Sequence record: ON210138.1
From: Escherichia phage EC106
Length of the DNA: 64,000 nucleotides
Reading direction: 5' to 3' (one strand)
Position numbers and translations under genes: made by a program. Below the pieces are notes generated by a model. The model saw nothing but the letters and a program-made list of their open reading frames with translations, searched no databases and was not told the DNA's origin. This document shows, in pieces, positions 48 to 42,208 of the stretch. Each line of letters opens with the position of its first letter. The first letter of the stretch is position 1.

Positions 48-232
48 TACCTGCACGATTCTAAAATGATTTTTCTTGCCCGACCTGAGCGGGGTCTGCA
101 CGTTTTGAAAATGAAAAAGCTCTTTGGAGATTATCTGCACAGTTTGAAAATGAATTTTCTCTTTGGAGTTCAAAATTCTCTCTACAGATTTCTCTACAGA
201 ACTCTACCTGCACAATTCTGAAATGAAAAAGC
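48..232. repeat. array of four direct repeats, core CTGCAC-N2-TTYTRAAATGA, in ORF-poor left end
   Basis: copies at 51-69, 96-114, 135-153, 208-226; two copies followed by TCTTTGGAG; CTCTACAG duplicated at 182-200; G-rich tract at 1-37. Confidence 0.55.
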
Positions 233-299
233 CATCCTTACCTGAAAAATTTACCAGATAAGAAAGGCTTAGGCTATTGTGAATATCCTACAGAGTTTC

Positions 300-1085
300 T
301 TAGTTCTTTGCGTCTAAGAAGGTTACTTCCGGTGAAGAGAAAATTTCCTCAACATCCTCATCAGTTCTTGCATAGATATATGTATCTGCATCACTGCCAA
401 ATGTTACTGCAATCCTGTGATTGCTCTTCGACAGGTGGGTAACTAGAGCGTTACTTAGAGACATCTTTTCAACCGGAGGGTTACTTTGATGTATCTTACC
501 TTTTCTTCGTCTGAAGAGGGTAACTGCGTTATCTGTGAACACAACTACACCTGCAAAGTGTTCTGGTTCACAGTAGTTCTTCCAACCTGAGAGTAACTTG
601 TGGTACATCTCTCCTTCATAGACATATAGATAAACATCTACACTCTTCATCACCTGATTGATGATAACTGTGACGGCTTGAGGGTCAAGTCCACCGATAC
701 CTGCACCAATCATAGGTAAACCAACTTTCTTCAACTGATTGACTTCACAGTATCTGTTAAGCTGTTTCAAAGATGACTCTAAAGCACTGTATCGGGCATC
801 TTTACCAGTCTTAAGCTGAGTGTAAAGGTTAGCTATACGGCCTTGTTTTAAACGTGCTACAGAGAAATTGCCTAGTAAATTTTCACATGGTTTGTGGCCT
901 ATACCACCTGCATACAGATAGACTTCTGTATCGGTCTCATATGCTTTTGGGTAAAGTTTAGAAATCTTGTCAGCAATACCTGCACCCATTAAGTTCATAC
1001 AGTTACAACCGTGACCAATAATATCAAACTTACCCTTATCAAATGCGGAGAAGATATCCCCATTGATGATTTTTACAATACCCAT
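300..1085 (-). CDS. macro-domain (ADP-ribose binding/processing) protein with uncharacterised C-terminal extension
   Basis: N-terminal INGDIF, DIIGHGCNC, MGAGIA and later GLPMIGAGIGG motifs match macro-domain glycine-rich loops; C-terminal ~100 aa unassigned. Confidence 0.6.
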   Translation of the reverse strand: MGIVKIINGDIFSAFDKGKFDIIGHGCNCMNLMGAGIADKISKLYPKAYETDTEVYLYAGGIGHKPCENLLGNFSVARLKQGRIANLYTQLKTGKDARYSALESSLKQLNRYCEVNQLKKVGLPMIGAGIGGLDPQAVTVIINQVMKSVDVYLYVYEGEMYHKLLSGWKNYCEPEHFAGVVVFTDNAVTLFRRRKGKIHQSNPPVEKMSLSNALVTHLSKSNHRIAVTFGSDADTYIYARTDEDVEEIFSSPEVTFLDAKN

Positions 1086-1322
1086 TTAGCATCTCTCCCA
1101 AGATTCTTTATCTTCTGAAGGTTTTACACGTTGTCCTTCGTGGTCTACCCAGATACATCCACAACCTTCACAGATTACTGGCATTGCATAGCCAGCTTTA
1201 AAGTCATCTTCAGTGATAAGACCTTTTAAGTCACCTGTATCACGTCCGAACATTTCGATAGCACAATCTTTGCAGAAGTCAGCCATGAATAATTGCCTCT
1301 TGGATGATGATGCCTTTACCAC
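1086..1322 (-). CDS. hypothetical Cys-rich small protein (putative zinc binding)
   Basis: ORF with CKDC and CEGCGC motifs, co-oriented in operon. Confidence 0.35.
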   Translation of the reverse strand: MVKASSSKRQLFMADFCKDCAIEMFGRDTGDLKGLITEDDFKAGYAMPVICEGCGCIWVDHEGQRVKPSEDKESWERC

Positions 1323-2638: not shown

Positions 2639-3451
2639 TTACTCTTGACTGTAATAGTTGACAAGTGAAATTGCTTGATTCATCAACAGCTTATCAGCCT
2701 GTGCTCCGCGACCAGCTTGTAATGCTAGTTGGTATACCTCTGTAACATATTTGTTAGACATACCTTCACAGTAATCGTTATAATCCTCCCAAAAGGAGAA
2801 TGCAGCATCACCATATAGGCGTAATGTGATTAGCATTGCTGCACGGATACCAGAAGAGTACTTGCGTTTTGCGTTTACTACACCTTTAAGCTGTACTTCA
2901 AGAGAATCAATTTGTTCCAACTCATTCTTAAAATCATTAAGGTATTTAACTGTTTCAGTGTTAGATACCTGTTGCACACCATAGTATGCAGCAACATACT
3001 TAATGGCAGTAGCCCAAGATGCTTTCATCAATTCTGATTCTGGATTGAAAGAAATCATCTTCATATTCCCGTAATAAACCTCTGAAGGTTTCTCTCTTGC
3101 TAATTCAGAGTCAAAATGAGTATACAAATCTGTGACATCCAATATAGAGTTCACATGGTATATAACTGCAATCAGGTTATCTGGTCGTGTCAGGTTACCA
3201 ACCTTCCATGCCTCTCGACGTGAGTGTCCATCAATAATAAACAGTGAACTGCCAAACTTAGCTACATGGACTACTGTTTGGTCTGGTGACACATCACCAT
3301 TAAGGTGCTTACTCTTCAGACGTTTCAGTGTATTTCTCTGACGAGGATTTTCTTTGTAGCGTTTCTCGTTAAGGAAATCCTCAACACTGATAATCTTAGT
3401 GTGCATTTTAACAACTTTACCGTTCAGTGCTACATTGATGCTATTTGACAT
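2639..3451 (-). CDS. ParB/Srx-like domain protein (paralog of 6418-7257)
   Basis: IDGHSRREAW motif resembling the DGHxR core of ParB-like nuclease/CTPase folds; clear similarity to 6418-7257. Confidence 0.45.
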   Translation of the reverse strand: MSNSINVALNGKVVKMHTKIISVEDFLNEKRYKENPRQRNTLKRLKSKHLNGDVSPDQTVVHVAKFGSSLFIIDGHSRREAWKVGNLTRPDNLIAVIYHVNSILDVTDLYTHFDSELAREKPSEVYYGNMKMISFNPESELMKASWATAIKYVAAYYGVQQVSNTETVKYLNDFKNELEQIDSLEVQLKGVVNAKRKYSSGIRAAMLITLRLYGDAAFSFWEDYNDYCEGMSNKYVTEVYQLALQAGRGAQADKLLMNQAISLVNYYSQE

Positions 3452-3462
3452 AACTTTATACC

Positions 3463-4347
3463 TTAGTTGTGGATAATTACTTCGTTAATACCTTTGCTTC
3501 TCTGTGCATGTATTGTGTATGAATGATTAACCTCTGTCAAGTGAAAATTTTCAGGAATTAGGTTTATCCATCCGTCCCACTGAGAGTTTGACATTAACAC
3601 CTTAGAGCCTAACTCCCCCCAATCAGACATATCTTTGCACAATTTCACAGACATTGAAACGTCGAACTTTGCGCCATATTTCTGGTTGGTGTTTATATAT
3701 GGTGGGTCACAGTAAATGACCGTCCCTTCTCCATGCTTTATGTCAACCATATCATAAGAGTGACTGCTGAGGACAACCCTCTCATCAGTGATGAAGTTAT
3801 AGAACTCCTTTAGTGCTTCTTCAGTCTTTGTAAAGAAAACTTCTTCTTCCATCAAATAGCCGCAAGGGGTTGCATAGTGCCCTTTCATCTCTTTAGTTGT
3901 CTGCCATACACCACCAAAACTTAGTTTCTGAAGGAAAAACTGTCTGGCATAGTATCTGTAGTCATAGACACCAGATTCACCAAGCGTGAGAAGCTCGTCT
4001 CTTACACTGTAGTACATCTTATAACGTAATCGGTTATGGCGTTGCCCCTTCATAGTGTACTCTTCCTGCATAGGTAATGCTAAGTACCTTTTTGCCAAGT
4101 ACCGAAACCCTTCCATGAATTTGTCATAATCATCCCTGAAGGTTATGTAAAGCTCTATGATATGCTTGTTTATCTCATTAATAAATATTTTTGCTTCTGG
4201 GTACTTATTGTAAGCCCAGATAGCTACTGAGCCACCACCTGAAAACAGGTCATAGAAGTTTTTACAGTTGTCTGGAAAGACACCTAAACGCTCATATTCT
4301 TTCAGTATTCTTGTTTTACCGCCAAGATACTTAAACATTGGTTTCAT
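3463..4347 (-). CDS. dam: Dam-family N6-adenine DNA methyltransferase
   Basis: KYLGGK N-terminus, FSGGGSV (motif I) and CDPPY (motif IV). Confidence 0.85.
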   Translation of the reverse strand: MKPMFKYLGGKTRILKEYERLGVFPDNCKNFYDLFSGGGSVAIWAYNKYPEAKIFINEINKHIIELYITFRDDYDKFMEGFRYLAKRYLALPMQEEYTMKGQRHNRLRYKMYYSVRDELLTLGESGVYDYRYYARQFFLQKLSFGGVWQTTKEMKGHYATPCGYLMEEEVFFTKTEEALKEFYNFITDERVVLSSHSYDMVDIKHGEGTVIYCDPPYINTNQKYGAKFDVSMSVKLCKDMSDWGELGSKVLMSNSQWDGWINLIPENFHLTEVNHSYTIHAQRSKGINEVIIHN

Positions 4348-4364
4348 TAGTACTCCTTGAATTT

Positions 4365-4385
4365 AAAAAGGCTCCCGAAGGAGCC
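4365..4385 (-). terminator. rho-independent terminator, same hairpin sequence as 2612-2632
   Basis: GGCUCC-UUCG-GGAGCC + U5 on minus strand. Confidence 0.75.
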
Positions 4386-4397
4386 TGTATCTTAACC

Positions 4398-4862
4398 TTA
4401 ACCGAGGACTTTAGCAAGGAAATTTGCAGCCATCGAAGAAGCTTTTGCAGCAGCAGCTACCCCAGCTTTGGCAGTGCTATCCTTGATAGCAGATACCGTT
4501 GCAGCATCAGTAAAGAGATAAGTAGTTGTTTTAGAACCACTTGTAAAGGAAAGCATGAGAGCAGTTTCCAGATTGAAAGAGCGATACGGAGCACCTTCTT
4601 TAACGATACCTACAGCACCTAATTCTGAAGCCATCCCCATATCATAGATGGTCATCAGGTTTTCTTTGTGTGCAGTCGTTGAACCAGCACCTTTGACGTG
4701 TTTCTTAACATTCAAAAGGGCACGATACTCCCGAATGTTACCGTCTGCTTTTACATTGACAGCACGGAAGATTTTACCCTCAAAGTTGCTCTTGATAATG
4801 TTACGAACTACTTCAGATTTGTTTGCCGTAACGTCAAGTGCTACCGTAATGATATTGTTCAT
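4398..4862 (-). CDS. hypothetical protein
   Basis: ORF with Ala/Ser/Thr-rich C-terminus; no recognisable motif. Confidence 0.4.
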   Translation of the reverse strand: MNNIITVALDVTANKSEVVRNIIKSNFEGKIFRAVNVKADGNIREYRALLNVKKHVKGAGSTTAHKENLMTIYDMGMASELGAVGIVKEGAPYRSFNLETALMLSFTSGSKTTTYLFTDAATVSAIKDSTAKAGVAAAAKASSMAANFLAKVLG

Positions 4863-4872: not shown

Positions 4873-6093
4873 TCAATGTTTAACTAACATGGTTTTAATG
4901 TGTGGAAGGATTCTGTTCACCTTCTGCACATTCTTCTCTGTGTCTTCTATAAAACATACTATATTAAAGTAAGGCAGGATGCAAGACTGAATCATCCTCA
5001 CTTTCAAACTTTCTGCACTTATAGAGTTAGTCCCAAAACCACGCATAAAAAGCATGTAGTCATGCTCTGTGTTATGCCTTAAAAACATCTCAGTAGGTAT
5101 TCTCTGAGATTCACCTCTCGCTGTCAAGAGGCCAATGGCAGCATGATTAGCAATTGCATCAATGATATTGAAAACATACGTTGGTTTTGCTCTTACAGAG
5201 TCAAGAAGATTGGTATACTGTGAAAATGAACCGTCTGTCAATTCCGTTGAGCAATCTTCGTGATTAAAATTTGTAAGAACACCATCAATATCTGCTAAGA
5301 TGAGATTCCCTTTTTCTACAAGGTCTTTATTGACTATGACTAAGCTATCACGACTCACACCTATAGTTTGTCCAGTCTCTTTATCAACAATGTTCACAAT
5401 TGGTTCTGATGTGTGGAACTCTTCAAGTGAACATATAACTTCTCTTGCAGTGTCTTCAAAATCCCTGCACTGTTCTGGAGTCCATACACAGGAATCAAGA
5501 CCTAACTCATGAGGATGTAAGTCATAAGCATGACACAGGACTTCATCAGACTTTTTAATTTTTTCATGGTTTACCTTAGAAATGTTTGTTGCAAATTCAC
5601 ATTGAGCAATAACTTTCATGTTGTTATAGACATCTTGAGAATACTTCTTAGCTTTAGGGATTCTGTACGAATACCCAGCATTATATGATGCTAAAACTTT
5701 TTGTAAAGTCTTCTTTGACTTTGGCTGACCATGCACCTTTGTCCAAAACTCAAGCTCTTTGTGAGTTTCCTTCGCAGCATAATCAAAGTCTCTTAAGAGT
5801 TTCTTTTTAGCCACATTAGGGCTAATTTTGTTACGCTTTACAACAGTCTTCAAGTGATTCTGGAAAATACCATAATCGTGTGTCTTTTTATTCTCTACCT
5901 TCAGACCTAACTCTGACTCTTGTAAGGCTATAGCAGCTAGAGTGATACCCCAACCTTTACCCATGTTATTCTCACCATACTGGTAAGCTTTTAACATGTT
6001 TACTTTTTGGCTAATTGATAGCTCTGGGCAGTCAACTGCATAAGATAAGTGTGCTGTAAACATTAAGCACAAACCTAGAATCAATTTCTTCAT
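4873..6093 (-). CDS. secreted lytic transglycosylase (SLT) domain protein with C-terminal HAD-like phosphatase-type domain
   Basis: signal peptide; SLT motifs QESE, GIFQ, SYNAGYS; C-terminal DIDGVLT (HAD motif I) and IEDTEKN. Confidence 0.55.
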   Translation of the reverse strand: MKKLILGLCLMFTAHLSYAVDCPELSISQKVNMLKAYQYGENNMGKGWGITLAAIALQESELGLKVENKKTHDYGIFQNHLKTVVKRNKISPNVAKKKLLRDFDYAAKETHKELEFWTKVHGQPKSKKTLQKVLASYNAGYSYRIPKAKKYSQDVYNNMKVIAQCEFATNISKVNHEKIKKSDEVLCHAYDLHPHELGLDSCVWTPEQCRDFEDTAREVICSLEEFHTSEPIVNIVDKETGQTIGVSRDSLVIVNKDLVEKGNLILADIDGVLTNFNHEDCSTELTDGSFSQYTNLLDSVRAKPTYVFNIIDAIANHAAIGLLTARGESQRIPTEMFLRHNTEHDYMLFMRGFGTNSISAESLKVRMIQSCILPYFNIVCFIEDTEKNVQKVNRILPHIKTMLVKH

Positions 6094-7324: not shown

Positions 7325-8224
7325 TTAATGCAAGTGTTTTTCTAAAGTATTTATAATTTCTTGTGAGTTGATAGAGCCTGCATAACTCAGTGCAAAACCA
7401 TCTCTCAAATCATTAAACCATTCTTGTTTGATTGCTGAGTAAAGTCCTTCTATGTGTGGTTCGATAAACTGTTTCACTGACACCTTGTCTTTATCTGGTT
7501 CAAAAGCCTTCACAGTACCAGCCTTGCGACCATGCGTGATAATCGTGAACAAGTCTTTGCCATCTAGTTTACCTAAAACACCAACTGGCTGCTCTTTACC
7601 ATCAATCTTGTGACATGGTGGTCTGTATAGTGTGAATTTCTCACGCTTATAGACTCTTACACCATCAACTATCACAGGGGCAATCTTACAAATTTTATCT
7701 GCCCGTTTTTGTCTCTTCCAGATTTGGAAGTTACAGCGTAGTGATGACTCTTTTGCTGAGTAGGCAACTCCATCAATCCTTTCAAAATGAAGGTTAGGTA
7801 GCTCTACTTCATCAATGCAGGTGTACTCTCTGCTAAGTCTGCTAAGATTCTTCTTCCCAAAGTTAATAGGAACTAGGAAGCAAATGTAGTCTGGATTCAT
7901 TGTAGCAGCCTTGTTAAAGAACTTTGTAGACAGACTGTTTGCCTTACCAAATGGAGGGTTGGTAACAATCGCAAAAGGCTTATCTGGAATTTCTAAGTCA
8001 TCTTTCAGGAAGTCTCTTGTGCTAACATCTTCAGAGTCTGGTTCGATGTCGTATAGCACAACATCTTGACAAACCCTCTTAAAAGAGTCTTTCCATCTTC
8101 CGTCACCTGCACAGGGGTCTATAATGCACGAAATAGAGCCTTTAAAGACCTTTTGTAGCTTCTCTTCACACACTCTTATTACTTCGTCTGGTGTGTAGTA
8201 TTTATCAAGTTCTGCTTTAGCCAT
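7325..8224 (-). CDS. gamma-class DNA methyltransferase (N6-adenine or N4-cytosine)
   Basis: YYTP, IDPCAGDG (motif I) and NPPF (motif IV) in gamma-class order. Confidence 0.7.
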   Translation of the reverse strand: MAKAELDKYYTPDEVIRVCEEKLQKVFKGSISCIIDPCAGDGRWKDSFKRVCQDVVLYDIEPDSEDVSTRDFLKDDLEIPDKPFAIVTNPPFGKANSLSTKFFNKAATMNPDYICFLVPINFGKKNLSRLSREYTCIDEVELPNLHFERIDGVAYSAKESSLRCNFQIWKRQKRADKICKIAPVIVDGVRVYKREKFTLYRPPCHKIDGKEQPVGVLGKLDGKDLFTIITHGRKAGTVKAFEPDKDKVSVKQFIEPHIEGLYSAIKQEWFNDLRDGFALSYAGSINSQEIINTLEKHLH

Positions 8225-12400: not shown

Positions 12401-14182
12401 TTAAAGCTGCTTGTCAATATTATTTCGAATATCACCAAGAGTTGTGTAGCCGAACTGCTCAGAGTCGCTAAAGACTAAACGTAAAGCACAAGCTGGATGT
12501 TCAAGTGCATCTGCAAAGCTCTGGAACCCATAGCCATCTACAGCTTTCAGATTCTCACCATCCCACATGGGTGCTACACCACCAAAAGCAGACTTCTTAA
12601 CACCACTATCTGTTTTAGGGTCTTTTGCAAGCATAATCTCTTTACCACCAATGCTTGCAAGAGTTGCTTTGACAGCAAATGCAAAGGTGTCACGAGTAAT
12701 GTACTGGTAAGTGTAAGAACCTACACCAAACACTACGTTAGAGCTTGCAAAACCCATTTCATACAAACGCTTCAGGATTTCGTTTGCACGTTCCAACGTG
12801 ATAGAGTCACCATAGATAAGTCCGATATGCTCATCCAGTACCTTAAAACCTTTAGAGTTGATAGTTCCCCCAAAGATGTTGTACAATGTCTTAATAGCTC
12901 CATCAATCTCAGCTACAGGACGTGTTACAACGTTTGCAGAACCAACCATATAAGCATTTTTCAACATCACTGTATCAGCAACTTCGAAGTCTTCTCTGTC
13001 AACAACCATCTCGTAGCCTTCTGACAGTAGCCATCCAGCAATACCATAGTTGATGTCTTCAAGCTTCATGTTTAGAACAGAGTTCAGCATTGTATCACTA
13101 GCTTCCAGCTTGCTAAGATGTTCGTAATAAGCCTTTTTAGCACACTCTAAGTGGATTGCTTTATAACCTGTGACAATATATACAGGGTCTCCAGAGTCAG
13201 GGCGAATTACCAGTTTGCCATCACGTTCCATAATTTCTTTACGGAGTGCTGGTAAGATTTCTGACACAGTTCTCCAGAAGTTATAAGTATCTGAAACAAC
13301 ACTTGCAATACCAGTTGGATAAGTTTCTGTTAAGAAACGACGGAAGGTTTGTAACTCACCTTTAAAGCGTCTTTCTTCTTCAATCAACTCATTACCACCT
13401 TCCCAAGCAATGTTTGCACACATTACAGAGTGCTCAGTGGCTGGTACAGAGCTACCAATATCAGAGATTGGGTAGGACTGTCCATAGATTCGTTTAGCTG
13501 TATATACAGCAGGGAAGCTATCAGTCCCTTTAAAGCTGGTTAAGTGGCCTACAGCGTTAAATGCGTCATCAGTAAAGCCGGACATACCACGCATAGCAAA
13601 GTCATGGCACTGATAAGGTAAATGCAAGTCGTTGTCACAAGTAAGGTCAGCCCACTTCTTACAGATACGTTTGTAGTGCAATGCAATAGTTGCAATGGTA
13701 CAAGCCTTCCAAATCTCAGCAGAGAAAGCATCTTCCAGATACCCCGCTACCCAATGGAAACCTGAAACAGTGTTCTGGAAGACAATCATTGGTACACGCA
13801 TAGGGACAACTGTGCCTTCTTCTACAGCGTATACTTCAACTGGTAGATAACCTAAGTCATGAAGTGCTTCCCAATGCTCTCGACCAATAGCACCTTTACC
13901 CAGAACACCGTTCATGACTTCTAAGATTTCGTCAATTGCTTCTTTTTTATCACGTTCAAAGAAGGTGGCATTCCAATGGTCTATCAAGTAATCTTTAACG
14001 AAACGTTGAATACCAAAAGCTACTACACCATCAATTGCTAAAGGGCTGTTAAACCATTTATCGCTACGTGGTGTCAGGTTCAGCATAAGGTACTGTGTGG
14101 CATCTGGATACTGATATATATGTGATGCCTTGTAAGCATCTGCGTTTAAACCTGCTGGTACTGCATAAAGTGATTTAGTCAT
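12401..14182 (-). CDS. nicotinamide phosphoribosyltransferase (NAMPT/NadV) family protein; candidate NARP1 Namat
   Basis: 593-aa protein read as NAMPT-like by overall resemblance; immediately downstream of the PRPP-synthetase-like gene. Confidence 0.75.
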   Translation of the reverse strand: MTKSLYAVPAGLNADAYKASHIYQYPDATQYLMLNLTPRSDKWFNSPLAIDGVVAFGIQRFVKDYLIDHWNATFFERDKKEAIDEILEVMNGVLGKGAIGREHWEALHDLGYLPVEVYAVEEGTVVPMRVPMIVFQNTVSGFHWVAGYLEDAFSAEIWKACTIATIALHYKRICKKWADLTCDNDLHLPYQCHDFAMRGMSGFTDDAFNAVGHLTSFKGTDSFPAVYTAKRIYGQSYPISDIGSSVPATEHSVMCANIAWEGGNELIEEERRFKGELQTFRRFLTETYPTGIASVVSDTYNFWRTVSEILPALRKEIMERDGKLVIRPDSGDPVYIVTGYKAIHLECAKKAYYEHLSKLEASDTMLNSVLNMKLEDINYGIAGWLLSEGYEMVVDREDFEVADTVMLKNAYMVGSANVVTRPVAEIDGAIKTLYNIFGGTINSKGFKVLDEHIGLIYGDSITLERANEILKRLYEMGFASSNVVFGVGSYTYQYITRDTFAFAVKATLASIGGKEIMLAKDPKTDSGVKKSAFGGVAPMWDGENLKAVDGYGFQSFADALEHPACALRLVFSDSEQFGYTTLGDIRNNIDKQL

Positions 14183-14227
14183 CTTTTAATCTCTCTCAAA
14201 ATGGGGCTTTCAAGCCCCTATAAACTT

Positions 14228-15127
14228 TCAATCAAGGTTTGCTACAGTAACTTGACTATAATGTGTTAAGCTACGGTCTTTAGCTTCCCCTAAAGAGTTT
14301 GTAGTGTAAATGTGGTCAATACCATTGTCAAGAAGGTTTTCAACACCTTTAGAGAAGACACCATGTGTTACATAGAGTTCCACACGTTTTGCACCTGCTT
14401 TACGAAGATGTTTAGCTGCTTCTATGAATGTTCGACCACCATCACAGATATCGTCGAGAATCATAACAGTTTTATCTGTCAAATCAACATCATCAAGGAT
14501 TCGCATACCAGTAATTTCACCAGTCTTAAGGTTACGCACTTTAGACATTGTGATATATGGTTTATCCACCTCTTTAGCAGTCTCTGCAATCTTCTTAGAA
14601 GCACCTGCATCTGGGGCTACTAAGTAATCAACCAGAGGGTCATTCGCATAGTGAACTGCGACTTCCTTTTGAGGAATGCTTTGGAAGCAGTTAAATAGGT
14701 TGTCTGGTACATAACTGTGAGGGTCAACTGCACAGACTGCACCAAACCCCATTGCATTAACCTGTTTAGCAAAAACCTTCAAAGCTGCTGCATCACCTTT
14801 AAACATGTGACGGTCATATCGTGCATTCGGTAAGTAGTAAAAAATGACAGTCTTTAAGGCATATTCATGAGGAACTAAATCATCAATTGCTTCTTTAGCA
14901 AGTGCCACAGCAAACAGTGTGTCTTTGTCATAACCCTTTACAATCATAACCACATTGTTAATAGATGATGCTGCATAAGCAGTGAAATCAACAAGCTCTT
15001 GTGAAAAGTGTCCACCAATCTCACCAGAAGGGAACTGGATGATGTTAAGCTCTTCTTCATGAGACCCTTTTGTCGGTGAATGAATTATAACACGGATAGA
15101 TGTTTTCATAGTTTTACTCTCAATCAA
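14228..15127 (-). CDS. ribose-phosphate pyrophosphokinase (PRPP synthetase) family protein; candidate NARP1 Adps
   Basis: VAPDAGA and ILDDICDGGRT phosphoribosyl-binding motifs, YVTHGVFS. Confidence 0.8.
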   Translation of the reverse strand: MIESKTMKTSIRVIIHSPTKGSHEEELNIIQFPSGEIGGHFSQELVDFTAYAASSINNVVMIVKGYDKDTLFAVALAKEAIDDLVPHEYALKTVIFYYLPNARYDRHMFKGDAAALKVFAKQVNAMGFGAVCAVDPHSYVPDNLFNCFQSIPQKEVAVHYANDPLVDYLVAPDAGASKKIAETAKEVDKPYITMSKVRNLKTGEITGMRILDDVDLTDKTVMILDDICDGGRTFIEAAKHLRKAGAKRVELYVTHGVFSKGVENLLDNGIDHIYTTNSLGEAKDRSLTHYSQVTVANLD

Positions 15128-26030: not shown

Positions 26031-26528
26031 TCAAGCACAATTTGCTTTCATGACCTTATGGATTCTTTTTTCAGCATCTTCATAAGTTTCTTTAGTAATA
26101 AACTTAATTGCTGCAATATTGGCATTGTAGAAGAGTCTGAGCTTCGAGTCAATCCTTTTTGTCATTACATCGAACTTGTGTTGAAGGTTTGCTTCACCAT
26201 AAACTAGACCACCTTTTGTGTAGTAGGTCTGAATAATGTAAAAGTCAAAAAATTCTTTTCCAAAGCTCTCAATATCTTTTTTAATATACTCAGAAGAAGT
26301 CTCATAAGTCATCCAATCACTTTCCTTAGTGACTACCTTCTTCCGAGTCTTACCAGCAACTTTTCGTTTGGTCACACTATTAAGTTGTTTTTTACCCAAA
26401 TAGTACTGTCCAGTCTTTTTGCAGTACACTAGGTAGACAAAACCAAAGTGCTTTGCTGGGTCAACTTCCCCACATAAAGATACCCAATGGCCATAGGTGG
26501 GACAATTGCCAAATCCTTTAATCTTCAT
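26031..26528 (-). CDS. putative GIY-YIG-like nuclease
   Basis: GFVYLVY...YYLGKK spacing resembles the GIY-(x10)-YIG motif; weak. Confidence 0.3.
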   Translation of the reverse strand: MKIKGFGNCPTYGHWVSLCGEVDPAKHFGFVYLVYCKKTGQYYLGKKQLNSVTKRKVAGKTRKKVVTKESDWMTYETSSEYIKKDIESFGKEFFDFYIIQTYYTKGGLVYGEANLQHKFDVMTKRIDSKLRLFYNANIAAIKFITKETYEDAEKRIHKVMKANCA

Positions 26529-32755: not shown

Positions 32756-33178
32756 TTATTTCTCTCTCAGTTGGTTAAGTTTCTTTCTAGAACATTTTAA
32801 GTTTTCGGATGAAGAAAAGTCAAGTGTCTTTTCAGAACGTGGATAGTAGTGCCTATCCCAAGAAGTTTCAACATCGTTAATCAGTGACGCTAGATTACAC
32901 AGGTCTGTACCACTTTGCAACCTCTTTTTAAGAGAATCTAGTAAAGCAACTGTGTCTTTAGCTTTACGTCTCGCTGTAGCAACATCTTTCATATGCTCAA
33001 ATACAGAGCATTTTAAGTCATCTTCATAGTTTTCAGACAACTCTATTTCATGTTGTATATCAACCATTCTCCTGTGATGGTGAGCATATTCCCGTTGAGC
33101 AGCAATGTCAAGTTCTTCCAACTTCTGCAAAGCTCTAACAAAGTCAGCTATGTCTGGGTGAACAAACATTTTCTGCAT
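32756..33178 (-). CDS. hypothetical early protein
   Basis: first gene leftward of the divergent control region. Confidence 0.4.
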   Translation of the reverse strand: MQKMFVHPDIADFVRALQKLEELDIAAQREYAHHHRRMVDIQHEIELSENYEDDLKCSVFEHMKDVATARRKAKDTVALLDSLKKRLQSGTDLCNLASLINDVETSWDRHYYPRSEKTLDFSSSENLKCSRKKLNQLREK

Positions 33179-33435
33179 GTAAGCCTCTTTTAAGTAACTA
33201 TTAAGTTTTAATCTTTTATCTTAACGTATTCTATACGTTATACTTTAAAGCTTTTTAAAAGCTATTAAATAATCTTTTAAGAGTTTTAAAGTATCTGTAT
33301 AGTTAAACTGTTAAGTAACCTTTTAAGTAAAAACCCACTTCGCAAAGATTAACACCTTGTCAAGTACATTGTCAACTTGCTTTTTATAATTTTTTGCAGT
33401 AATGTATGAGGTTAATGATTTTAGAGGGAGTAAAA
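33179..33435. promoter_or_regulatory. AT-rich divergent control region with repeated CTTTTAAG motifs, palindromes and TATAAT element
   Basis: CTTTTAAG at 33187, 33274, 33321; palindrome AACGTATTCTATACGTT 33223-33239; TTGTCA x2 and TATAAT at 33385-33390; SD AGGGAG at 33424-33429. Confidence 0.5.
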
Positions 33436-35619
33436 ATGGAAAACGTAGATTTTAAAAACTTACATTTGGTTGGTGATACAGAAACTGATGGTTTACTCCT
33501 TGAGTTCACTAAAGTGCACGTAATGGCCTTTGCAGACTATAAATCTGACGATGAAGAGCCACCTGTATGGGTCTTTACAGATGAGCCTATCCTCGGTCAC
33601 AAGTACACCAAGTACATTAAGGGTGGTTTACGTGAAGGTGTTGAGTTTGCGTTAAAGGCAAAACGACTTTGCATCCATAACGGTCTTGGTTATGACTGGT
33701 GGGTTTTTAATCACATTGCACCTGATTTATGGAACTTTGATAATCCAAAGTGTAAGCCGTGGAGTAATTTCTTTCAGGATTCTCTTATCCAGTCTCGTGT
33801 TCAGTGGATGGATAGACCAACTCCAAAGGGTTATAAAGGTGCTCATGGCTTGGCTGCATGGGGTGCTCGTGTTGGTGTTCGTAAGCCAGAGATTGAGCAT
33901 TGGGGTGTGTGGAATGCAGAAATCTTCACTCGTGTTGTAGAAGATATTCGTATTAACGCCAAAACTAAACGGGCACTTGATAACGAGTATCTCAAGCTTA
34001 AGAAGTGTGGTATAGACACTTATGAAACCTACATGCGAGCTAAAGAAACATCTTTCTGGATGAGTCAACAGGCTATCAATGGTTGGAAAGCTGATAAAGA
34101 ACTTATGGAGTTCCATGTAAAGGAACTTGACAAGTTGACTAATGAGCTTGCTTCAGAGGTTGAACCACATCTACCTCCAACTATTAAGACCAAAGGTAAA
34201 GTCACTGGAGAAGAGTTTGCGAAAGCTTGGAATGAGTATGTTGAAACATTTGGTCATGCAGATGGACTGAAGAGAATTACCAAGTACCCTAAGACAAAGT
34301 ATCGTCAGCAGGTACGTAATGGTGAGATGCAGACATACGAAATCAAACCATTTGGTAAGCCAACTACAAAGATTTTTAACATTGGAAAGAGAAATTGCTA
34401 TACACCAACTAACTCCGTAACTGGTGAAGAGTACAAGGAAGGCTTTGTAGCAATGAAGGATGCTCGTGCAATTTGCAATGAGTTGAACGCAAAGATTGGT
34501 AAGAAATGCAAAGACTGGAAGCCAGTAAAAACAGTCAAAACTGTGAAGTACTATAACAGCCACGTTGTTAACCACTTTGAACTTGAGTCAAGTCGCTACA
34601 CAGGTTTGATTGATGCACCATATACACCAATTGAGTTTGAAGTTTCTCGTATGACTCAGGTAGCAGTTGTTAAAGATTACTTGAAATCAGTTGGTTGGAT
34701 TCCAGATGACTGGAATTACAAGAAAGACTCAGATGGTCGCCCTGTCAAAGTTTGTCGTTTCAAAGACAATAAAAAGATGATTACAAAGCATCCTAAGTGG
34801 CAGGAAATGGTTGAGCGGTGTGGTTTGAGCTATGTTGAGCATGAAGGTGTACAGTACATTGAGCATAACTGGTCTGTGAAGAAGTACACAGATTTGCTTG
34901 AGCCTTGTTTAATCCGTACTTCACCAAAACTTACTGAATCATCTTACGATACGATTGAAGGTGAACTTGGACAGAAGATTGCGAAGTACTATACTTTGAT
35001 GCACCGACGCAGAACTATTGAGAACTCAAAGGACGACGAAAAAGGCTGGTTGAACCAGATTCGTCCAGATGGTCGCCTTAGTGCTGGTGCAATGGTGTTT
35101 GGTACTTCAACTGGACGTATGACGCAATATGGTATTGTAAACGTACCGTCTGGTGCTGCTGTCTATGGAGCACCTATGAGGGAGGTGTGGATTTGTGAGG
35201 AAGGGACTAACGTTGTCTCTGTTGATATGAACTCAGCCCAGCTAGTTCTTCTTTGTAACTTTATGGGTGATAAAGAGTCCACTAAAGCGGTAACACAAGG
35301 TAAAGAAGAGGTTGAGTTCATTCGTCAAGAAGATGGACGCTATTACTGCAAACACTTTGATGAGTACCTCAACCCAGAGATTGATAAGTACCTTCGCTAT
35401 GACTCTGAGAATGACCTGTACGTTGTCTATTCAGGGACTGATGCACATACACTGAACAGTATCTACTTTAGCTTGAACGATGAGCAGGATATCTTGACTT
35501 GTCGAGCTACTCAGGATGAGAATCTTCTTCATGAGATTAGCAAAGGTCGTAAGAAAGCTAAGAATGGTATCTATGCGTCAGTGGCGCATGTAAAACGTTG
35601 TGAATTGCTGGAAGCCTAA
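33436..35619 (+). CDS. family A DNA polymerase, N-terminal part (exon 1); ORF-track start 33406, likely start 33436 after SD
   Basis: 3'-5' exonuclease motif HLVGDTETDG, motif A VDMNSAQLVLL, motif B RKKAKNGIY near the end. Confidence 0.85.
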   Translation: MENVDFKNLHLVGDTETDGLLLEFTKVHVMAFADYKSDDEEPPVWVFTDEPILGHKYTKYIKGGLREGVEFALKAKRLCIHNGLGYDWWVFNHIAPDLWNFDNPKCKPWSNFFQDSLIQSRVQWMDRPTPKGYKGAHGLAAWGARVGVRKPEIEHWGVWNAEIFTRVVEDIRINAKTKRALDNEYLKLKKCGIDTYETYMRAKETSFWMSQQAINGWKADKELMEFHVKELDKLTNELASEVEPHLPPTIKTKGKVTGEEFAKAWNEYVETFGHADGLKRITKYPKTKYRQQVRNGEMQTYEIKPFGKPTTKIFNIGKRNCYTPTNSVTGEEYKEGFVAMKDARAICNELNAKIGKKCKDWKPVKTVKTVKYYNSHVVNHFELESSRYTGLIDAPYTPIEFEVSRMTQVAVVKDYLKSVGWIPDDWNYKKDSDGRPVKVCRFKDNKKMITKHPKWQEMVERCGLSYVEHEGVQYIEHNWSVKKYTDLLEPCLIRTSPKLTESSYDTIEGELGQKIAKYYTLMHRRRTIENSKDDEKGWLNQIRPDGRLSAGAMVFGTSTGRMTQYGIVNVPSGAAVYGAPMREVWICEEGTNVVSVDMNSAQLVLLCNFMGDKESTKAVTQGKEEVEFIRQEDGRYYCKHFDEYLNPEIDKYLRYDSENDLYVVYSGTDAHTLNSIYFSLNDEQDILTCRATQDENLLHEISKGRKKAKNGIYASVAHVKRCELLEA

Positions 35620-35891
35620 GTCTGTAAAGATATGGTAATCAGCAGCGAAGTCTCTGTTAGGACTCCTAAAGCAAATAACATAACTATAGAGATTCCTAAC
35701 AGAGAAACGTTCAGAGACTATCGAAAAGCATACTTAATGTATGAACTGAGTAGAGTAGGGTGGTAAGCTAATGACCATTCCCAAGTGCAACGGTAGTATT
35801 ACTACTACGTGATATAGTCCGACACTCCGTAGAAATGCGGAGAAGTTCATAAGAGAACTGGTACACCTTGCGAGTGTATTGACCAGATGTA
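35575..35891 (+). other. putative ORF-less group I intron (or split-gene junction) in DNA polymerase gene; boundaries approximate
   Basis: polymerase motif B ends exon 1 and GAGDEK continuation starts 35892; about 270-310 nt of structured non-coding sequence between. Confidence 0.5.
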
Positions 35892-36446
35892 TTGTTCGGT
35901 GCAGGTGATGAGAAGTTTGCTAAGACGATTAAAGCTGCAACTACTCAGGAAGGTGCGCTGACTAAACAGACTTACTTTATACGTTTGCCTAAAATTAAGA
36001 AGCTGTTAGATGACTTGGAAGCTGACTACAAAGCAACTAAAAAGGCACTTGAAGAGGTGTTTGGTAAGACTGCTGCAATCTCTAAAGGGGGTTTTGTAAA
36101 GGTTGCTGGAGCTTGGTTGTGGTGTAAATCTCCACATAAGTTATTGAATTATTTGCTCATGGGTTCGGAAAGTCAGATTCAGAACGAGGCAATTAACCTT
36201 GCTTGCCGTCGTATGATTGACGAAGGTTTGATGAAGTTGAACGGTCGTAAACCAGCCATAGGTGCTCGTTTATTGTGCTCCTATCACGACGAGACAAGTT
36301 GGGAATGTCCAGAAAGTATGACGGCAGAGGTGAAGGCTGTCACTGATTGGTATTACGGACAAGCCTCTAAGAACTTAGGGCTAAAGAGTGAAACACTGGT
36401 AACTGGTACTGGTAAGGTTGGTAAAAGCTGGTATGAGGTACATTGA
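35892..36446 (+). CDS. family A DNA polymerase, C-terminal part (exon 2)
   Basis: LFGAGDEKFAKTI continues motif B; motif C SYHDE; C-terminal ...YEVH. Confidence 0.85.
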   Translation: MFGAGDEKFAKTIKAATTQEGALTKQTYFIRLPKIKKLLDDLEADYKATKKALEEVFGKTAAISKGGFVKVAGAWLWCKSPHKLLNYLLMGSESQIQNEAINLACRRMIDEGLMKLNGRKPAIGARLLCSYHDETSWECPESMTAEVKAVTDWYYGQASKNLGLKSETLVTGTGKVGKSWYEVH

Positions 36447-36958
36447 TGCGAGATTGTGGATTCACACATGAACAGTTAAAGTCTTGGTTAAACTATGACC
36501 CCGAAACAGGGGTCTTAACGTGGATTGGCAGACCTCCACATAGTAGTAGGGTGGTTATTGGGAGCCAAGCCGGAGCAATCAAGCGCACAAGGTCTGGTGT
36601 GTATATGCACACACAGATTTTAGGATACAGGACAGGCAATCACCGAATTGCTTGGTTCTGGATGACAGGTAAGTGGCCTGATAAACACATTGACCATAAA
36701 GATGGAGATGGTTTGAATAACGCTTGGGACAATCTAAGAGAGGCCACAAAAGAGCAGAACATGTCCAATAGGAGACAACCTAGAACATCAAAAAACTTAA
36801 AAGGTACAAGTAGAAGCAAGTCTGGTAAGTGGATAGCCCAGATTAACCATAATGGCAAGACTATACATATAGGGACATACACAACAGAAGAAGAAGCCCA
36901 TAAAGCTTACTGTGAAGCTGCTATTAAACTCCACGGAGAGTTTGCAAAACTAAGTTGA
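36443..36958 (+). CDS. HNH homing endonuclease with AP2-type DNA-binding domain
   Basis: HIDHKDGDGLNNAWDNL HNH motif; C-terminal GKWIAQI...YTTEEEAHKAY AP2-like; start overlaps polymerase stop. Confidence 0.75.
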   Translation: MMRDCGFTHEQLKSWLNYDPETGVLTWIGRPPHSSRVVIGSQAGAIKRTRSGVYMHTQILGYRTGNHRIAWFWMTGKWPDKHIDHKDGDGLNNAWDNLREATKEQNMSNRRQPRTSKNLKGTSRSKSGKWIAQINHNGKTIHIGTYTTEEEAHKAYCEAAIKLHGEFAKLS

Positions 36959-37009
36959 CAAGGTGCTCAGGGAAGAGTACCTTATACTATATCTTGTATA
37001 GGAGGGCTT

Positions 37010-37219
37010 ATGAGCCACCGTGGAAGAACCCATGCAGCGATGATGAAAGGTGCTTCAAAGGAAACTATCAAGAACCGTAAGCAGAAGTTGTTTGAGAGAA
37101 TGAACAGGCTAATTGACAATTCATCTCTTTCAGGTTCTGAGAAGGTTTTCTTGAAAGGTAATCTGAAAAGCATTGCACAAGAACTTATTGACATTGAGTA
37201 TTGGAGACATCAAAAATGA
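37010..37219 (+). CDS. hypothetical protein
   Basis: co-oriented small ORF. Confidence 0.35.
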   Translation: MSHRGRTHAAMMKGASKETIKNRKQKLFERMNRLIDNSSLSGSEKVFLKGNLKSIAQELIDIEYWRHQK

Positions 37220-37428
37220 CACTTGCAGACGTTATTCAGCAACTTCACGACAATTGCTATACTCCAGAGTTGATTCAGGAGATGTCCATTGTAGTGATGC
37301 CTAGTAAGTTCGTAAGAGCTTTTAATGGTGACTCTTTAAGGGCTGCACATATCCTTATTGTTGACGGCAAGATTGCAAGAGACCGTACAGGAGTCCTTAA
37401 GGGCGAACGTATTAATATTGACCTCTGA
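37201..37428 (+). CDS. hypothetical protein
   Basis: co-oriented small ORF. Confidence 0.35.
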   Translation: METSKMTLADVIQQLHDNCYTPELIQEMSIVVMPSKFVRAFNGDSLRAAHILIVDGKIARDRTGVLKGERINIDL

Positions 37429-37444
37429 GTATTGGTATACCAAA

Positions 37445-37600
37445 ATGAAACGCAAAGTAAAATTATTCAGTTTGTATGGAAGAGTCGGTAAAGGTTTTGA
37501 TTGGCAACTGCTACGTTCAGATGTTAAAAGCAACGAGTTAGCACAGCTTATTATAAACTATCGACGAACGTACAGAGAGGTAGAGCATCGTGAACAGTAA
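37445..37600 (+). CDS. hypothetical small protein (internal start of ORF 37358-37600)
   Basis: ATG at 37445 avoids overlap with upstream gene. Confidence 0.25.
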   Translation: MKRKVKLFSLYGRVGKGFDWQLLRSDVKSNELAQLIINYRRTYREVEHREQ

Positions 37601-37844
37601 AATTGAAAAGTCTGATGAAGTTATCAGAAGCAAAGATAAAGCTACAGCATTAGTAGCTGAAGCTTGGAGCAGGGGCTTGGACTACGAATGGTATCTTAGT
37701 ATATGCCAAGGGCTATCAGTTTCCCCTGTACAAAAAGAGATTTTTGATAAACTCTACGCAGTTTGTCAAGAGGGATACAATGAAGCCATGCTTCAAAACT
37801 GCATGAGTTTAATCAACCCAAAAGCATCTGATTTATTCTTTTGA
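37590..37844 (+). CDS. hypothetical protein
   Basis: co-oriented small ORF. Confidence 0.35.
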   Translation: MNSKIEKSDEVIRSKDKATALVAEAWSRGLDYEWYLSICQGLSVSPVQKEIFDKLYAVCQEGYNEAMLQNCMSLINPKASDLFF

Positions 37845-37853
37845 GGAAACACT

Positions 37854-38060
37854 ATGCAAGTTTTAGTAAACTATATCTACCGTTACGATGTTATTCATTC
37901 TACTACAACGGTATCTCAACGTAATCCAATTGTACCAAGAGAAGGTGAGTGGGTTCGTATTGAAGGTTGGACTTACACTGTAGAGAACATCATTCACAAG
38001 TTTGATGTGGCTGGTGATGTTCAGGTTATTGCTGTAGAAATTGGTGGTAAGAGAAAATGA
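37854..38060 (+). CDS. hypothetical protein
   Basis: co-oriented small ORF. Confidence 0.35.
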   Translation: MQVLVNYIYRYDVIHSTTTVSQRNPIVPREGEWVRIEGWTYTVENIIHKFDVAGDVQVIAVEIGGKRK

Positions 38061-39342: not shown

Positions 39343-39349
39343 AAAGTTG

Positions 39350-39580: not shown

Positions 39581-39624
39581 TATACTCAATGTAATACAAA
39601 ATTTAATATAACTTTGAGGTCATT

Positions 39625-40008: not shown

Positions 40009-40009
40009 T

Positions 40010-40514: not shown

Positions 40515-40515
40515 T

Positions 40516-42207: not shown

Positions 42208-42208
42208 T

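What the first reader, a model, noticed from the sequence alone, without database searches (positions are those of the whole stretch)
300..1085. Macro-domain protein with novel C-terminal extension at the end of the leftward operon
The N-terminal ~160 aa carries macro-domain loops (GDIF, DIIGHGCNC...MGAGIA, GLPMIGAGIGG) and the C-terminal ~100 aa matches nothing I recognise. Macro domains bind or hydrolyse ADP-ribose derivatives, so in a phage that also encodes a candidate NAD+ reconstitution module it could reverse host ADP-ribosylation (DarT-like or CmdT-like toxins) or process ADP-ribose-derived immune signals.
Basis: partly seen in the sequence, partly recalled or inferred. Interest (0 to 1): 0.6.

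Follow-up and report, generated by a model that had tools for sequence, protein, structure and literature searches.

The report
Phage anti-DarT macrodomain with orphan tail
This Felix O1-like phage gene encodes an ADP-ribose-removing macrodomain related to phage T4's anti-DarTG2 factor, most likely used to strip a bacterial defence toxin's marks off phage DNA, fused to a roughly 100-residue domain of unknown fold found only in this phage subfamily.

Summary

The macro half is a known kind. It is 35% identical to T4 Tk.4 and shares PHROG 335 with it. A 2025 preprint named Tk.4 AdfM because deleting it sensitises T4 to DarTG2.

The whole Tk.4 clade has an invariant Gln where DarG and TARG1 have the catalytic Lys. 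Streptomyces SCO6735 has that same Gln, needs it for activity, and cleaves thymidine-linked ADP-ribose from DNA. The equivalents of SCO6735 H24, N27, Q85, G126 and G128 are all conserved here.

The most likely function is therefore de-ADP-ribosylation of DarT2-modified phage DNA. This is inferred, not shown.

The C-terminal domain is confined to Ounavirinae (242 phage genomes), is always fused, is under purifying selection, and evolves 2-3 times faster than the macro half. It is unrelated to the DarG C-terminus, AdfA or AdfB, and its role is unknown.

Verdict: a new variant of a known kind, of moderate interest.

The parts
300..1085 (-). Complete CDS, 261 aa plus TAA stop (300..302): macro domain fused to an Ounavirinae-specific C-terminal domain
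   Evidence: ORF list. PHROG 335 E=3.6e-112 over aa 1-260. Orthologues at 90-99% identity in about 200 Felixounavirus genomes. dN/dS below 1.
621..1085 (-). Macro domain, aa 1-155, TARG1/DarG/SCO6735-like class, Tk.4 (AdfM) clade
999..1013 (-). H25-G26-C27-N28-C29 motif. H25 and N28 correspond to SCO6735 H24 and N27 (DarG N22).
   Evidence: Invariant H25, G26, N28 and C29 across 21 clade members. Direct alignment of a clade member to 5e3b gives HGCN <-> H24 V25 C26 N27. The N27S mutant is almost inactive (PMC9411070).
972..989 (-). M33-G34-A35-G36-I37-A38, Gly-rich loop 1 of the ADP-ribose pocket
   Evidence: M33, G36 and A38 are invariant. Aligns to TARG1 MGAGIA.
816..830 (-). N86-L87-Y88-T89-Q90. 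Q90 occupies the position of the catalytic Lys of TARG1 (K84) and DarG (K80) and of the essential Gln85 of SCO6735.
   Evidence: Alignments to TARG1. Alignment of a clade member to SCO6735 (NMIGQ85) and to Mtb DarG (PTKKHW). N86, L87, T89 and Q90 are invariant in the clade. Q85A and Q85E mutants are inactive.
690..716 (-). P124-M-I-G127-A-G129-I-G-G132, phosphate-binding loop 2
   Evidence: P124, G127 and G129 are invariant. They align to SCO6735 P123, G126 and G128. The G128E mutant has reduced activity.
303..620 (-). C-terminal domain, aa 156-261: linker helix (158-167), six beta-strands, terminal helix (242-249). Orphan fold, specific to Ounavirinae.
549..578 (-). N170-x3-P174-x2-F177-D/A178-G179, the most conserved segment of the C-terminal domain, at the domain boundary
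   Evidence: P174 and G179 are invariant, and N170 and F177 are in 17 of 19 sequences, in homologues down to 33% identity.
1093..1099 (-). Shine-Dalgarno-like GGGAGAG, 7 nt upstream of the ATG. The upstream ORF's stop codon abuts the start codon (TAAATG).
   Evidence: Sequence read directly. A ribosome-binding site is annotated at the same place in phages Meda and Michonne.
223..269 (-). Hairpin followed by CUUUUUC, a candidate intrinsic terminator downstream of the stop codon
   Evidence: Terminator scan. RNA fold -23.8 kcal/mol, z = -3.3 against shuffles.
1086..1283 (-). Upstream 65-aa CxxC...CxxC protein (PHROG 2210, unknown function), possibly translationally coupled. Whether it belongs to the same functional unit is uncertain.
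   Evidence: A different small CxxC ORF abuts the macro gene in the distant locus L004.

Best explanation
The gene encodes an orphan, antitoxin-like ADP-ribosylglycohydrolase of the T4 Tk.4 (AdfM) clade.

Proposed mechanism: early in infection, host DarT2-type toxins ADP-ribosylate thymidines in single-stranded phage DNA and block replication. The N-terminal macro domain binds the ADP-ribose through its two Gly-rich loops. It then cleaves the thymine-ribose bond by the Gln-dependent, water-initiated mechanism described for Streptomyces SCO6735. In that mechanism Gln90, held in place by Asn28, orients the distal ribose. This differs from the Lys-nucleophile chemistry of DarG and TARG1. The outcome is restored phage DNA.

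The C-terminal domain of about 105 aa is a lineage-specific, non-catalytic accessory module packed against the macro domain. It most likely acts through protein-protein contacts. It could add a second, stoichiometric layer of toxin neutralisation, or it could target the enzyme to replicating DNA.

Shown here: the gene, the macro fold, clade membership, conservation of the active-site residues, and the restriction of the tail to Ounavirinae together with selection on it.
Inferred: the substrate (dT-ADPr on DNA), the biological target (DarTG2), and any role of the C-terminal domain.

For: (2) Same clade as T4 Tk.4: 35% identity, E=8e-24, shared HGCNC, NLYTQ and P.IGAGIG motifs. Both fall in PHROG 335. 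A clean tk.4 knockout sensitises T4 to DarTG2 (preprint).

(3) A profile of the clade hits TARG1 (4.6e-18), Mtb DarG (9.4e-18), SCO6735 (1.6e-17) and Poa1p. Enzymes of this TARG1-like class were the ones found to reverse T- and U-linked ADP-ribosylation.

(4) Q90 aligns with TARG1 K84. Through a clade member it also aligns with SCO6735 Q85 and the Mtb DarG lysine. The equivalents of SCO6735 H24, N27, Q85, G126 and G128 are invariant in the clade. In SCO6735, Q85A, Q85E and N27S abolish dT-ADPr hydrolysis, and the enzyme protects against DarT in vivo.

(5) DarG HMMs recognise the macro half more strongly here (47 bits) than in T4 Tk.4 (36 bits).

(6) The clade is phage-borne. A motif scan of about 185,000 species genomes gave only two true hits, both on phage-like MAG contigs. 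That fits an orphan counter-defence gene.

(7) The gene lies among same-strand genes that include rIIA and rIIB and ends at a hairpin plus U-run.

(8) The C-terminal domain is under purifying selection but evolves 2-3 times faster than the macro half. The full-length model's pTM of 0.86 suggests a fixed arrangement of the two domains.
Against: No biochemical or genetic test exists for any Ounavirinae member; a search for Felix O1 with DarTG returned no papers.

The T4 evidence is a preprint and is genetic only. Hydrolysis by a Gln-type phage macro domain has not been shown.

The biochemically proven phage AdfM (PhiKZ gp104) is a Lys-type, DarG-like enzyme only 25% identical to this protein.

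The SCO6735 DNA-positioning lysines K34 and K89 have no positional equivalents here. The DarG Trp83 proposed to stack on thymine is also missing.

The clade shares the HxCNC motif with yeast Poa1p, an ADP-ribose-1''-phosphate phosphatase, so a small-molecule substrate is not excluded.

For the C-terminal domain there is no positive evidence of function. Its charge is not conserved (pI 4.6-9.5). It resembles neither the DarG C-terminus, AdfA nor AdfB.
Confidence: 0.55

Rival explanations
1. Poa1p-like small-molecule enzyme. Under this reading the protein is an ADP-ribose-1''-phosphate phosphatase or O-acetyl-ADP-ribose deacetylase that clears NAD-derived metabolites, which is what its database names imply, and it has no anti-defence role.
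Against: The annotations are inherited names, not tests. T4 Tk.4, in the same PHROG, has a specific DarTG2 phenotype. Poa1p has Ser, not Gln, in its LFTS motif by my reading of the alignment. The clade's best single-sequence PDB match is SCO6735, not Poa1p. A housekeeping metabolite phosphatase does not explain why the clade is confined to phages.
Confidence: 0.1
2. RNA or protein de-ADP-ribosylase. The physiological substrate would be uracil-linked ADP-ribose on RNA, or ADP-ribosylated proteins, made by host toxins other than DarT2.
For: TARG1, DarG and SCO6735 also remove U-ADPr from ssRNA in vitro. SCO6735 also de-modifies PARP1 E988Q.
Against: No bacterial anti-phage system that makes U-ADPr came up in the papers read. 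SCO6735 is inactive on 2'-OH RNA-ADPr, and its activity on 5'-phosphate-linked ADPr is reported inconsistently within one paper. CmdT adenine-ADPr is described as irreversible. The only genetic phenotype in the clade is against DarTG2.
Confidence: 0.12
3. Sponge or hydrolase for ADP-ribose-derived immune signals (gcADPR or His-ADPR of Thoeris), or a partner of the phage NAD+ salvage genes.
For: Macro domains bind His-ADPR in type II Thoeris ThsA. The phage encodes Nampt and Prs on the same strand.
Confidence: 0.07
4. Two-layer DarG mimic. The macro domain erases dT-ADPr, and the C-terminal domain directly binds and blocks DarT2 or another toxin, reproducing by convergence the macro plus toxin-binding architecture of DarG. 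This is a sharper version of the best explanation, listed separately because it makes a distinct claim about the tail.
For: DarG2 has exactly this logic, a macro domain plus a DarT-interacting domain. The tail evolves 2-3 times faster than the macro domain while under purifying selection, as expected for an arms-race interface. It is always fused and lineage-restricted.
Against: There is no sequence or fold similarity to the DarG C-terminus, AdfA or AdfB. The tail lacks the conserved acidic character expected of an ssDNA mimic. T4 Tk.4 works without any tail. SCO6735 inhibits DarT with its macro domain alone.
Confidence: 0.2

Closest known systems
T4 Tk.4 (ORF 60.5, 155 aa), named AdfM in the HIDEN-SEQ preprint (10.1101/2025.11.20.689424)
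   Same: Same macro clade and the same PHROG 335. 35% identity over aa 3-157 (E=8e-24). Identical HGCNC, NLYTQ and P.IGAGIG motifs, including the Gln in place of the catalytic Lys. Both are phage-encoded orphan genes.
   Different: Tk.4 is the macro domain alone. The Felix O1-type protein carries about 105 additional C-terminal residues that form a separate domain. No phenotype has been measured for the Felix O1-type protein.
Streptomyces coelicolor SCO6735 (PDB 5e3b), a Gln-type TARG1-like hydrolase of thymidine-linked DNA ADP-ribosylation (PMC9411070)
   Same: The active-site residues H24, N27, Q85, G126 and G128 correspond to H25, N28, Q90, G127 and G129 here. It is the best single-sequence PDB match of a clade member. 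It is an orphan enzyme not paired with a toxin.
   Different: SCO6735 is cellular, not phage-encoded. Its DNA-positioning K34 and K89 are not positionally conserved here. It has NMIGQ where this protein has NLYTQ. It has no C-terminal domain.
DarG2 antitoxin of DarTG2 (T. aquaticus, M. tuberculosis; PDB 5m3e, 5m3i; NCBIfam NF048014)
   Different: The catalytic K80 is replaced by Gln. It scores 47 bits against a 250-bit cut-off. The C-terminal domain is unrelated, since profile positions beyond about 150 are unmatched. No adjacent darT gene.
PhiKZ gp104, the chimallivirus AdfM (Cell Rep 2026, PMC13309987)
   Same: Phage-encoded orphan macro domain of the TARG1/DarG class. Shown to remove ADP-ribose from T-ADPr DNA and to protect against DarTG2.
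   Different: Only 25% identical (E=1e-4). It is Lys-type (N23, K78) and scores 133 bits on the DarG HMM against 47 here. It is imported into the phage nucleus. It has no C-terminal domain.
Human TARG1/OARD1 (PDB 4j5r, 2lgr)
   Different: The TARG1 catalytic dyad K84 and D125 aligns to Q90 and G131 here. TARG1 is eukaryotic and single-domain.
Yeast Poa1p (PDB 6lfq), ADP-ribose-1''-phosphate phosphatase
   Different: Poa1p has Ser (LFTS) where this clade has Gln, by my reading. Its substrate is a small molecule and it is eukaryotic. No phosphatase activity has been shown for any phage member.

Membership tests
Macro domain superfamily (Pfam PF01661) | Profile match above the curated gathering score | tested here: met
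   32.3 bits against a cut-off of 22, aa 25-141, E=1e-7.
Macro domain superfamily (Pfam PF01661) | Three-layer alpha/beta/alpha macro fold | tested here: met
Macro domain superfamily (Pfam PF01661) | Binds ADP-ribose | not testable with these tools
   Both Gly-rich loops (MGAGIA, IGAGIGG) and the N-terminal GD are conserved, but binding was not measured.
TARG1-like (ALC1-like) macro class: TARG1, DarG, SCO6735, Poa1p | Closest sequence and structure neighbours are members of this class | tested here: met
SCO6735-type (Gln) thymidine-ADPr DNA hydrolase | Gln at the TARG1 K84 / DarG K80 position, held in place by a conserved Asn (SCO6735 Q85 and N27) | tested here: met
   Q90 and N28 are invariant in 21 clade members. 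Supported by alignments and mutagenesis reported.
SCO6735-type (Gln) thymidine-ADPr DNA hydrolase | His24 and the Gly126/Gly128 phosphate-binding loop | tested here: met
   H25, G127 and G129 are invariant.
SCO6735-type (Gln) thymidine-ADPr DNA hydrolase | DNA-positioning lysines K34 and K89 | tested here: not met
   K34 aligns to A35 and K89 has no positional equivalent. K92 and K95 lie nearby but are not conserved across the clade.
SCO6735-type (Gln) thymidine-ADPr DNA hydrolase | Hydrolyses dT-ADPr on ssDNA | not testable with these tools
   Needs an enzyme assay.
AdfM, T4 Tk.4 type (anti-DarTG2 factor) | Homology to Tk.4 together with the clade's invariant motifs | tested here: met
   35% identity, E=8e-24. 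Same PHROG 335. Invariant motifs shared.
AdfM, T4 Tk.4 type (anti-DarTG2 factor) | Phage-encoded orphan with no cognate toxin | tested here: met
   Felixounavirus genome. The flanking ORFs are PHROG families of unknown function. The annotated relative has no DarT nearby.
AdfM, T4 Tk.4 type (anti-DarTG2 factor) | Required for plaquing on DarTG2 hosts | not testable with these tools
   Shown only for T4. No data for Ounavirinae.
DarG antitoxin (NCBIfam NF048014 equivalog; PADLOC PDLC02990) | Full-length match above the curated cut-off | tested here: not met
   47.3 bits against 250; only profile positions 4-150 of 338 are matched. PADLOC matches positions 17-145 of 329.
DarG antitoxin (NCBIfam NF048014 equivalog; PADLOC PDLC02990) | Catalytic lysine (K80) | tested here: not met
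   Gln90 occupies this position.
DarG antitoxin (NCBIfam NF048014 equivalog; PADLOC PDLC02990) | C-terminal DarT-binding domain | tested here: not met
   The C-terminal domain alone gives no NCBIfam or PADLOC hit and no PDB fold match.
DarG antitoxin (NCBIfam NF048014 equivalog; PADLOC PDLC02990) | Encoded next to darT | tested here: not met
   The neighbouring genes are small phage ORFs.
AdfM, PhiKZ gp104 type (DarG2-like) | DarG-like macro domain with N23 and K78 | tested here: not met
   25% identity; the lysine position is Gln here; 47 bits against 133 on the DarG HMM.
Poa1p ADP-ribose-1''-phosphate phosphatase | Sequence and fold similarity, including the HxCNC motif | tested here: met
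Poa1p ADP-ribose-1''-phosphate phosphatase | Phosphatase activity on Appr-1''-p | not testable with these tools
   The annotation is inherited by similarity only.

The most novel reading that the evidence does not exclude
The Ounavirinae-specific C-terminal domain is a new protein fold that gives the enzyme a second anti-defence activity. It might bind and block DarT2-type (or other) toxins directly, or it might recruit the eraser to the phage replisome. Under this reading the protein would be a convergently evolved two-layer 'DarG mimic', and the first phage anti-DarT factor to combine enzymatic reversal with a dedicated partner-binding module.
Probability: 0.2. Interest if true: 0.7.

Novelty: new variant of a known kind. 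Interest (0 to 1): 0.45.

Why it matters
DarTG systems occur in E. coli and other enterobacteria, and Felix O1-like phages are used for Salmonella typing and biocontrol. Knowing that the whole subfamily carries a probable anti-DarT2 eraser helps predict host range and defence escape.

Two points go beyond the published AdfM work:
- The T4/Felix O1 clade is a Gln-type, SCO6735-like enzyme, not a Lys-type, DarG-like one. So the two proteins that independent papers both named 'AdfM' come from mechanistically different sub-clades. Mutagenesis and inhibitor design should be guided by SCO6735, not by DarG.
- One phage subfamily has fused this eraser to a conserved, fast-evolving domain with no detectable relatives. 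That makes it a clean candidate for a new interaction module in the DarT arms race.

The widespread 'phosphatase' annotation of this gene family is probably misleading.

Tried and rejected
- **Profile of the C-terminal domain against 1.84 billion representatives.** Only its own family came back. The 114-aa and 54-aa 'stand-alone' hits are gene fragments. The multi-stretch hits include a PQQ-type beta-propeller and a tandem-repeat protein that I inspected; I did not inspect the three very large proteins. I rejected all of these as spurious.
- **Homology of the tail to the direct DarT inhibitors.** Compared with AdfA (T4 61.2) and with the 76-aa ICP1 ORF145 taken as AdfB: hhalign probability 0.2%. 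The ICP1 ORF was identified by number and length only.
- **Nucleic-acid binding or DNA mimicry by the tail.** Judged from charge. The pI ranges from 4.6 to 9.5 across the family, so neither idea is supported.
- **Cellular relatives next to DarT.** The alignment-based locus search failed. A motif scan of GTDB genomes gave 4 hits: 2 out-of-frame chance matches and 2 phage-like contigs, so no toxin context was available.
- **AFDB50 fold search.** Not available on the machine.
- **Functional coupling to the upstream small CxxC ORF.** A small CxxC ORF also abuts the macro gene in the distant locus L004, but the two show no evident sequence similarity. Left open.
- **MAFFT alignment A4.** It placed the PhiKZ 'PTK' one column out of register. 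I relied on BLAST and HMMER alignments instead.

Full report
**What is there.** The window is a Felix O1-like phage (Ounavirinae, Felixounavirus). Bases 1-3000 match about 250 phage records at 90-95% identity. ORF 300..1085 on the minus strand encodes 261 aa. A GGGAGAG ribosome-binding site lies 7 nt upstream of the ATG, and the stop codon of the preceding small ORF abuts the start codon (TAAATG). Relatives annotate the gene as 'phosphatase', 'macro domain protein', 'Poa1p-like' or 'O-acetyl-ADP-ribose deacetylase'.

**The N-terminal half is a macro domain.**
- Pfam Macro scores above its gathering threshold (32.3 against 22 bits).
- An AlphaFold2 model built from 19 homologues is confident (pLDDT 86, pTM 0.86).
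- A profile of the phage clade hits only this TARG1-like class in the PDB: TARG1 4.6e-18, Mtb DarG 9.4e-18, SCO6735 1.6e-17, Poa1p 4e-17.
- The DarG HMMs of NCBIfam and PADLOC recognise the macro half at about 47 bits, far below the 250-bit equivalog cut-off, and match none of the DarG C-terminal half.

**It belongs to the T4 Tk.4 clade.** A tblastn search finds the macro part in 2850 phage records, but full-length coverage in only 256. T4 Tk.4 (ORF 60.5, 155 aa) is 35% identical (E=8e-24) and shares the HGCNC...MG.G.A, NLYTQ and P.IGAGIG motifs. Both proteins fall in PHROG 335. Tk.4 covers profile positions 54-205 and this protein covers 53-312.

The HIDEN-SEQ preprint reports tk.4 as the single significant hit for conditional essentiality on DarTG2. 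It also reports that a clean knockout sensitises T4 to DarTG2, and it names the gene adfM. Independently, a Cell Reports paper gave the same name to PhiKZ gp104, which removes ADP-ribose from T-ADPr DNA in vitro. That protein is only 25% identical to this one, has the DarG-type Asn/Lys pair, and scores 133 bits on the DarG HMM. The two 'AdfM' proteins therefore come from different sub-clades, and this gene sits with T4 Tk.4.

**The active site is the Gln type.** DarG K80 and TARG1 K84 are the key catalytic residues, and K80A is inactive. In this protein the aligned residue is Gln90, in both single-sequence and profile alignments. TARG1 D125 aligns to Gly131. Across 21 clade members, with or without the tail, these residues are invariant: G9, H25, G26, N28, C29, M33, G36, A38, P46, G72, N86, L87, T89, Q90, P124, G127 and G129.

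The Gln does not imply an inactive enzyme. Streptomyces coelicolor SCO6735 has Gln85 at this position. It cleaves thymidine-linked ADP-ribose from DNA efficiently and protects cells from DarT. The Q85A, Q85E and N27S mutations abolish or nearly abolish its activity. The proposed mechanism has Gln85, locked by Asn27, orienting the distal ribose while a water molecule initiates cleavage.

A natural clade member aligns best to SCO6735 among all PDB sequences (E=1.4e-6). The printed alignment reproduces the paper's numbering:
- HGCN aligns with H24-V25-C26-N27.
- NLYTQ aligns with N81-M82-I83-G84-Q85.
- P.IG.G aligns with P123...G126-C127-G128.
- In the same output, Mtb DarG shows PTKKHW under YTQ.

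So H25, N28, Q90, G127 and G129 here correspond to the SCO6735 residues probed by mutagenesis. The two DNA-positioning lysines, K34 and K89, are not positionally conserved. In the papers read, TARG1, DarG and SCO6735 were the hydrolases that reversed T- and U-linked ADP-ribose. SCO6735 is inactive on 2'-OH RNA-ADPr, and its activity on 5'-phosphate-linked ADPr is reported inconsistently within one paper.

**The clade is phage-borne.** A stringent motif scan of one genome per species, covering about 185,000 species, gave four matches. Two are out-of-frame chance hits. Two are real and lie on phage-like MAG contigs. That fits an orphan counter-defence gene more than a housekeeping enzyme.

**The C-terminal domain (aa 156-261).** The model shows a linker helix, six beta-strands and a terminal helix.
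- It has no Pfam, NCBIfam or PADLOC match.
- In BFVD it matches only the SUSP2 orthologue.
- Its profile finds 11 proteins among 1.84 billion representatives. These are family members, two gene fragments, and unrelated repeat proteins.
- In sequenced phages it occurs in 242 records, all Ounavirinae (Felixounavirus, Suspvirus, Mooglevirus). It occurs once per genome and always inside the macro gene.
- Metagenomic homologues down to 33% identity keep the two-domain length. One of them sits in the same synteny, with rIIB, a D12 methyltransferase, SLT and HAD genes leading to the macro gene.
- Nei-Gojobori dN/dS over 8 orthologues is 0.01-0.2 for the macro half and 0.08-0.42 for the tail. The tail is therefore a selected domain that changes 2-3 times faster.
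- The conserved positions are mainly aromatic or structural, plus an N170-x3-P174-x2-F177-D-G179 segment at the domain boundary. Net charge is not conserved (pI 4.6-9.5). That argues against a conserved polybasic DNA-binding surface and against an acidic ssDNA mimic of the DarG C-terminus or AdfB type.
- It shows no similarity to T4 AdfA or to the 76-aa ICP1 ORF145 taken as AdfB.

**Context.** A hairpin plus U-run follows the stop codon (-23.8 kcal/mol, z = -3.3). Same-strand small ORFs continue beyond it in the window and in relatives. 'End of the leftward operon' is therefore at most the end of one transcription unit, seen at a window edge. Nampt and PRPP synthetase are present 11-14 kb upstream on the same strand. 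Nothing links them functionally to this gene.

**Conclusion.** The most likely function is erasure of DarT2-type thymidine ADP-ribosylation from phage DNA by a Gln-type, SCO6735-like mechanism. That makes this an Ounavirinae version of T4 AdfM. I put confidence at about 0.55, because neither the substrate nor the phenotype has been tested for this clade in vitro or for this subfamily in vivo. The tail is a subfamily-specific orphan domain. Its role is unknown, and I favour a protein-interaction or targeting function at low confidence.

The rivals have less support. They are a Poa1p-like metabolite phosphatase, an RNA or protein de-ADP-ribosylase, and a Thoeris-signal or NAD-salvage role. Overall this is a new variant of a known kind. 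It is ordinary in its catalytic half and new in its appended domain.

Noticed in passing
window 2639..4862 (-): A variable island. Many Felixounavirus genomes align only up to about base 2641. Here the island holds a 270-aa PHROG 2615 protein of unknown function containing a 'DGHSRR' segment, a D12-class N6-adenine DNA methyltransferase (3463..4347, Pfam E=1.8e-21) and a 154-aa PHROG 2267 protein. The relative SME50 carries three different hypothetical genes at this position.
   Followed up: partly
window 26031..26528 (-): The ORF that relatives annotate as 'NAD synthetase' (SME50_032) matches the Pfam SegE GIY-YIG endonuclease domain (E=8.7e-27). The annotation looks wrong, which removes one presumed member of the phage 'NAD module'.
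   Followed up: partly
window 12401..15127 (-): Nampt (NAPRTase plus NAMPT_N domains) and a PRPP synthetase-like protein sit side by side on the same strand as the macro gene. I did not look for an NMNAT partner.
   Followed up: partly
window 1086..1283 (-); L004 7810..8001: A small CxxC...CxxC protein (PHROG 2210) ends exactly where the macro gene starts (TAAATG). In a distant syntenic phage contig, a different small CxxC protein also abuts the macro gene. This could be coincidence or a conserved zinc-ribbon partner.
   Followed up: partly
Literature: T4 Tk.4 (L001 1498..1962) and PhiKZ gp104 (L005 12518..13003): Two independent papers gave the name AdfM to proteins from different macro sub-clades. 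T4 Tk.4 is Gln-type (36 bits on the DarG HMM). PhiKZ gp104 is Lys-type (133 bits). The two were not compared directly with each other here; each is 35% and 25% identical to the present protein respectively.
   Followed up: yes
L015 6695..7288 (-), contig JBBACR010000001.1: A 425-kb contig binned as a 'Candidatus Pacearchaeota' MAG carries a Tk.4-type macro gene with a different, short helical C-terminal tail, among small phage-like ORFs. The contig may be a jumbo phage and not archaeal DNA.
   Followed up: no
window 4873..6093 (-): A 406-aa ORF with an N-terminal signal-peptide-like segment and no Pfam hit at E<=0.001. In the distant syntenic locus L004, the corresponding position holds separate genes with weak SLT and HAD_PNKP hits, so this may be a fusion.
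   Followed up: no
window 7325..8224 (-): A second methyltransferase-like ORF with a weak Pfam N6_Mtase hit (E=6e-5), in addition to the D12-class enzyme. The phage may encode two DNA adenine methyltransferases.
   Followed up: no
window ~33000..43000: GC skew and AT skew change sign between about 33 kb and 43 kb, which coincides with a switch of coding strand (the ORF 33406..35619 is on the plus strand). This marks a divergent transcription module.
   Followed up: no
phage records GU169904.1 and MG065664.1: Records labelled 'Staphylococcus phage SA1' and 'Campylobacter phage A132' carry near-identical Felixounavirus sequence, including this gene. They look like mislabelled or contaminated database entries.
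   Followed up: no
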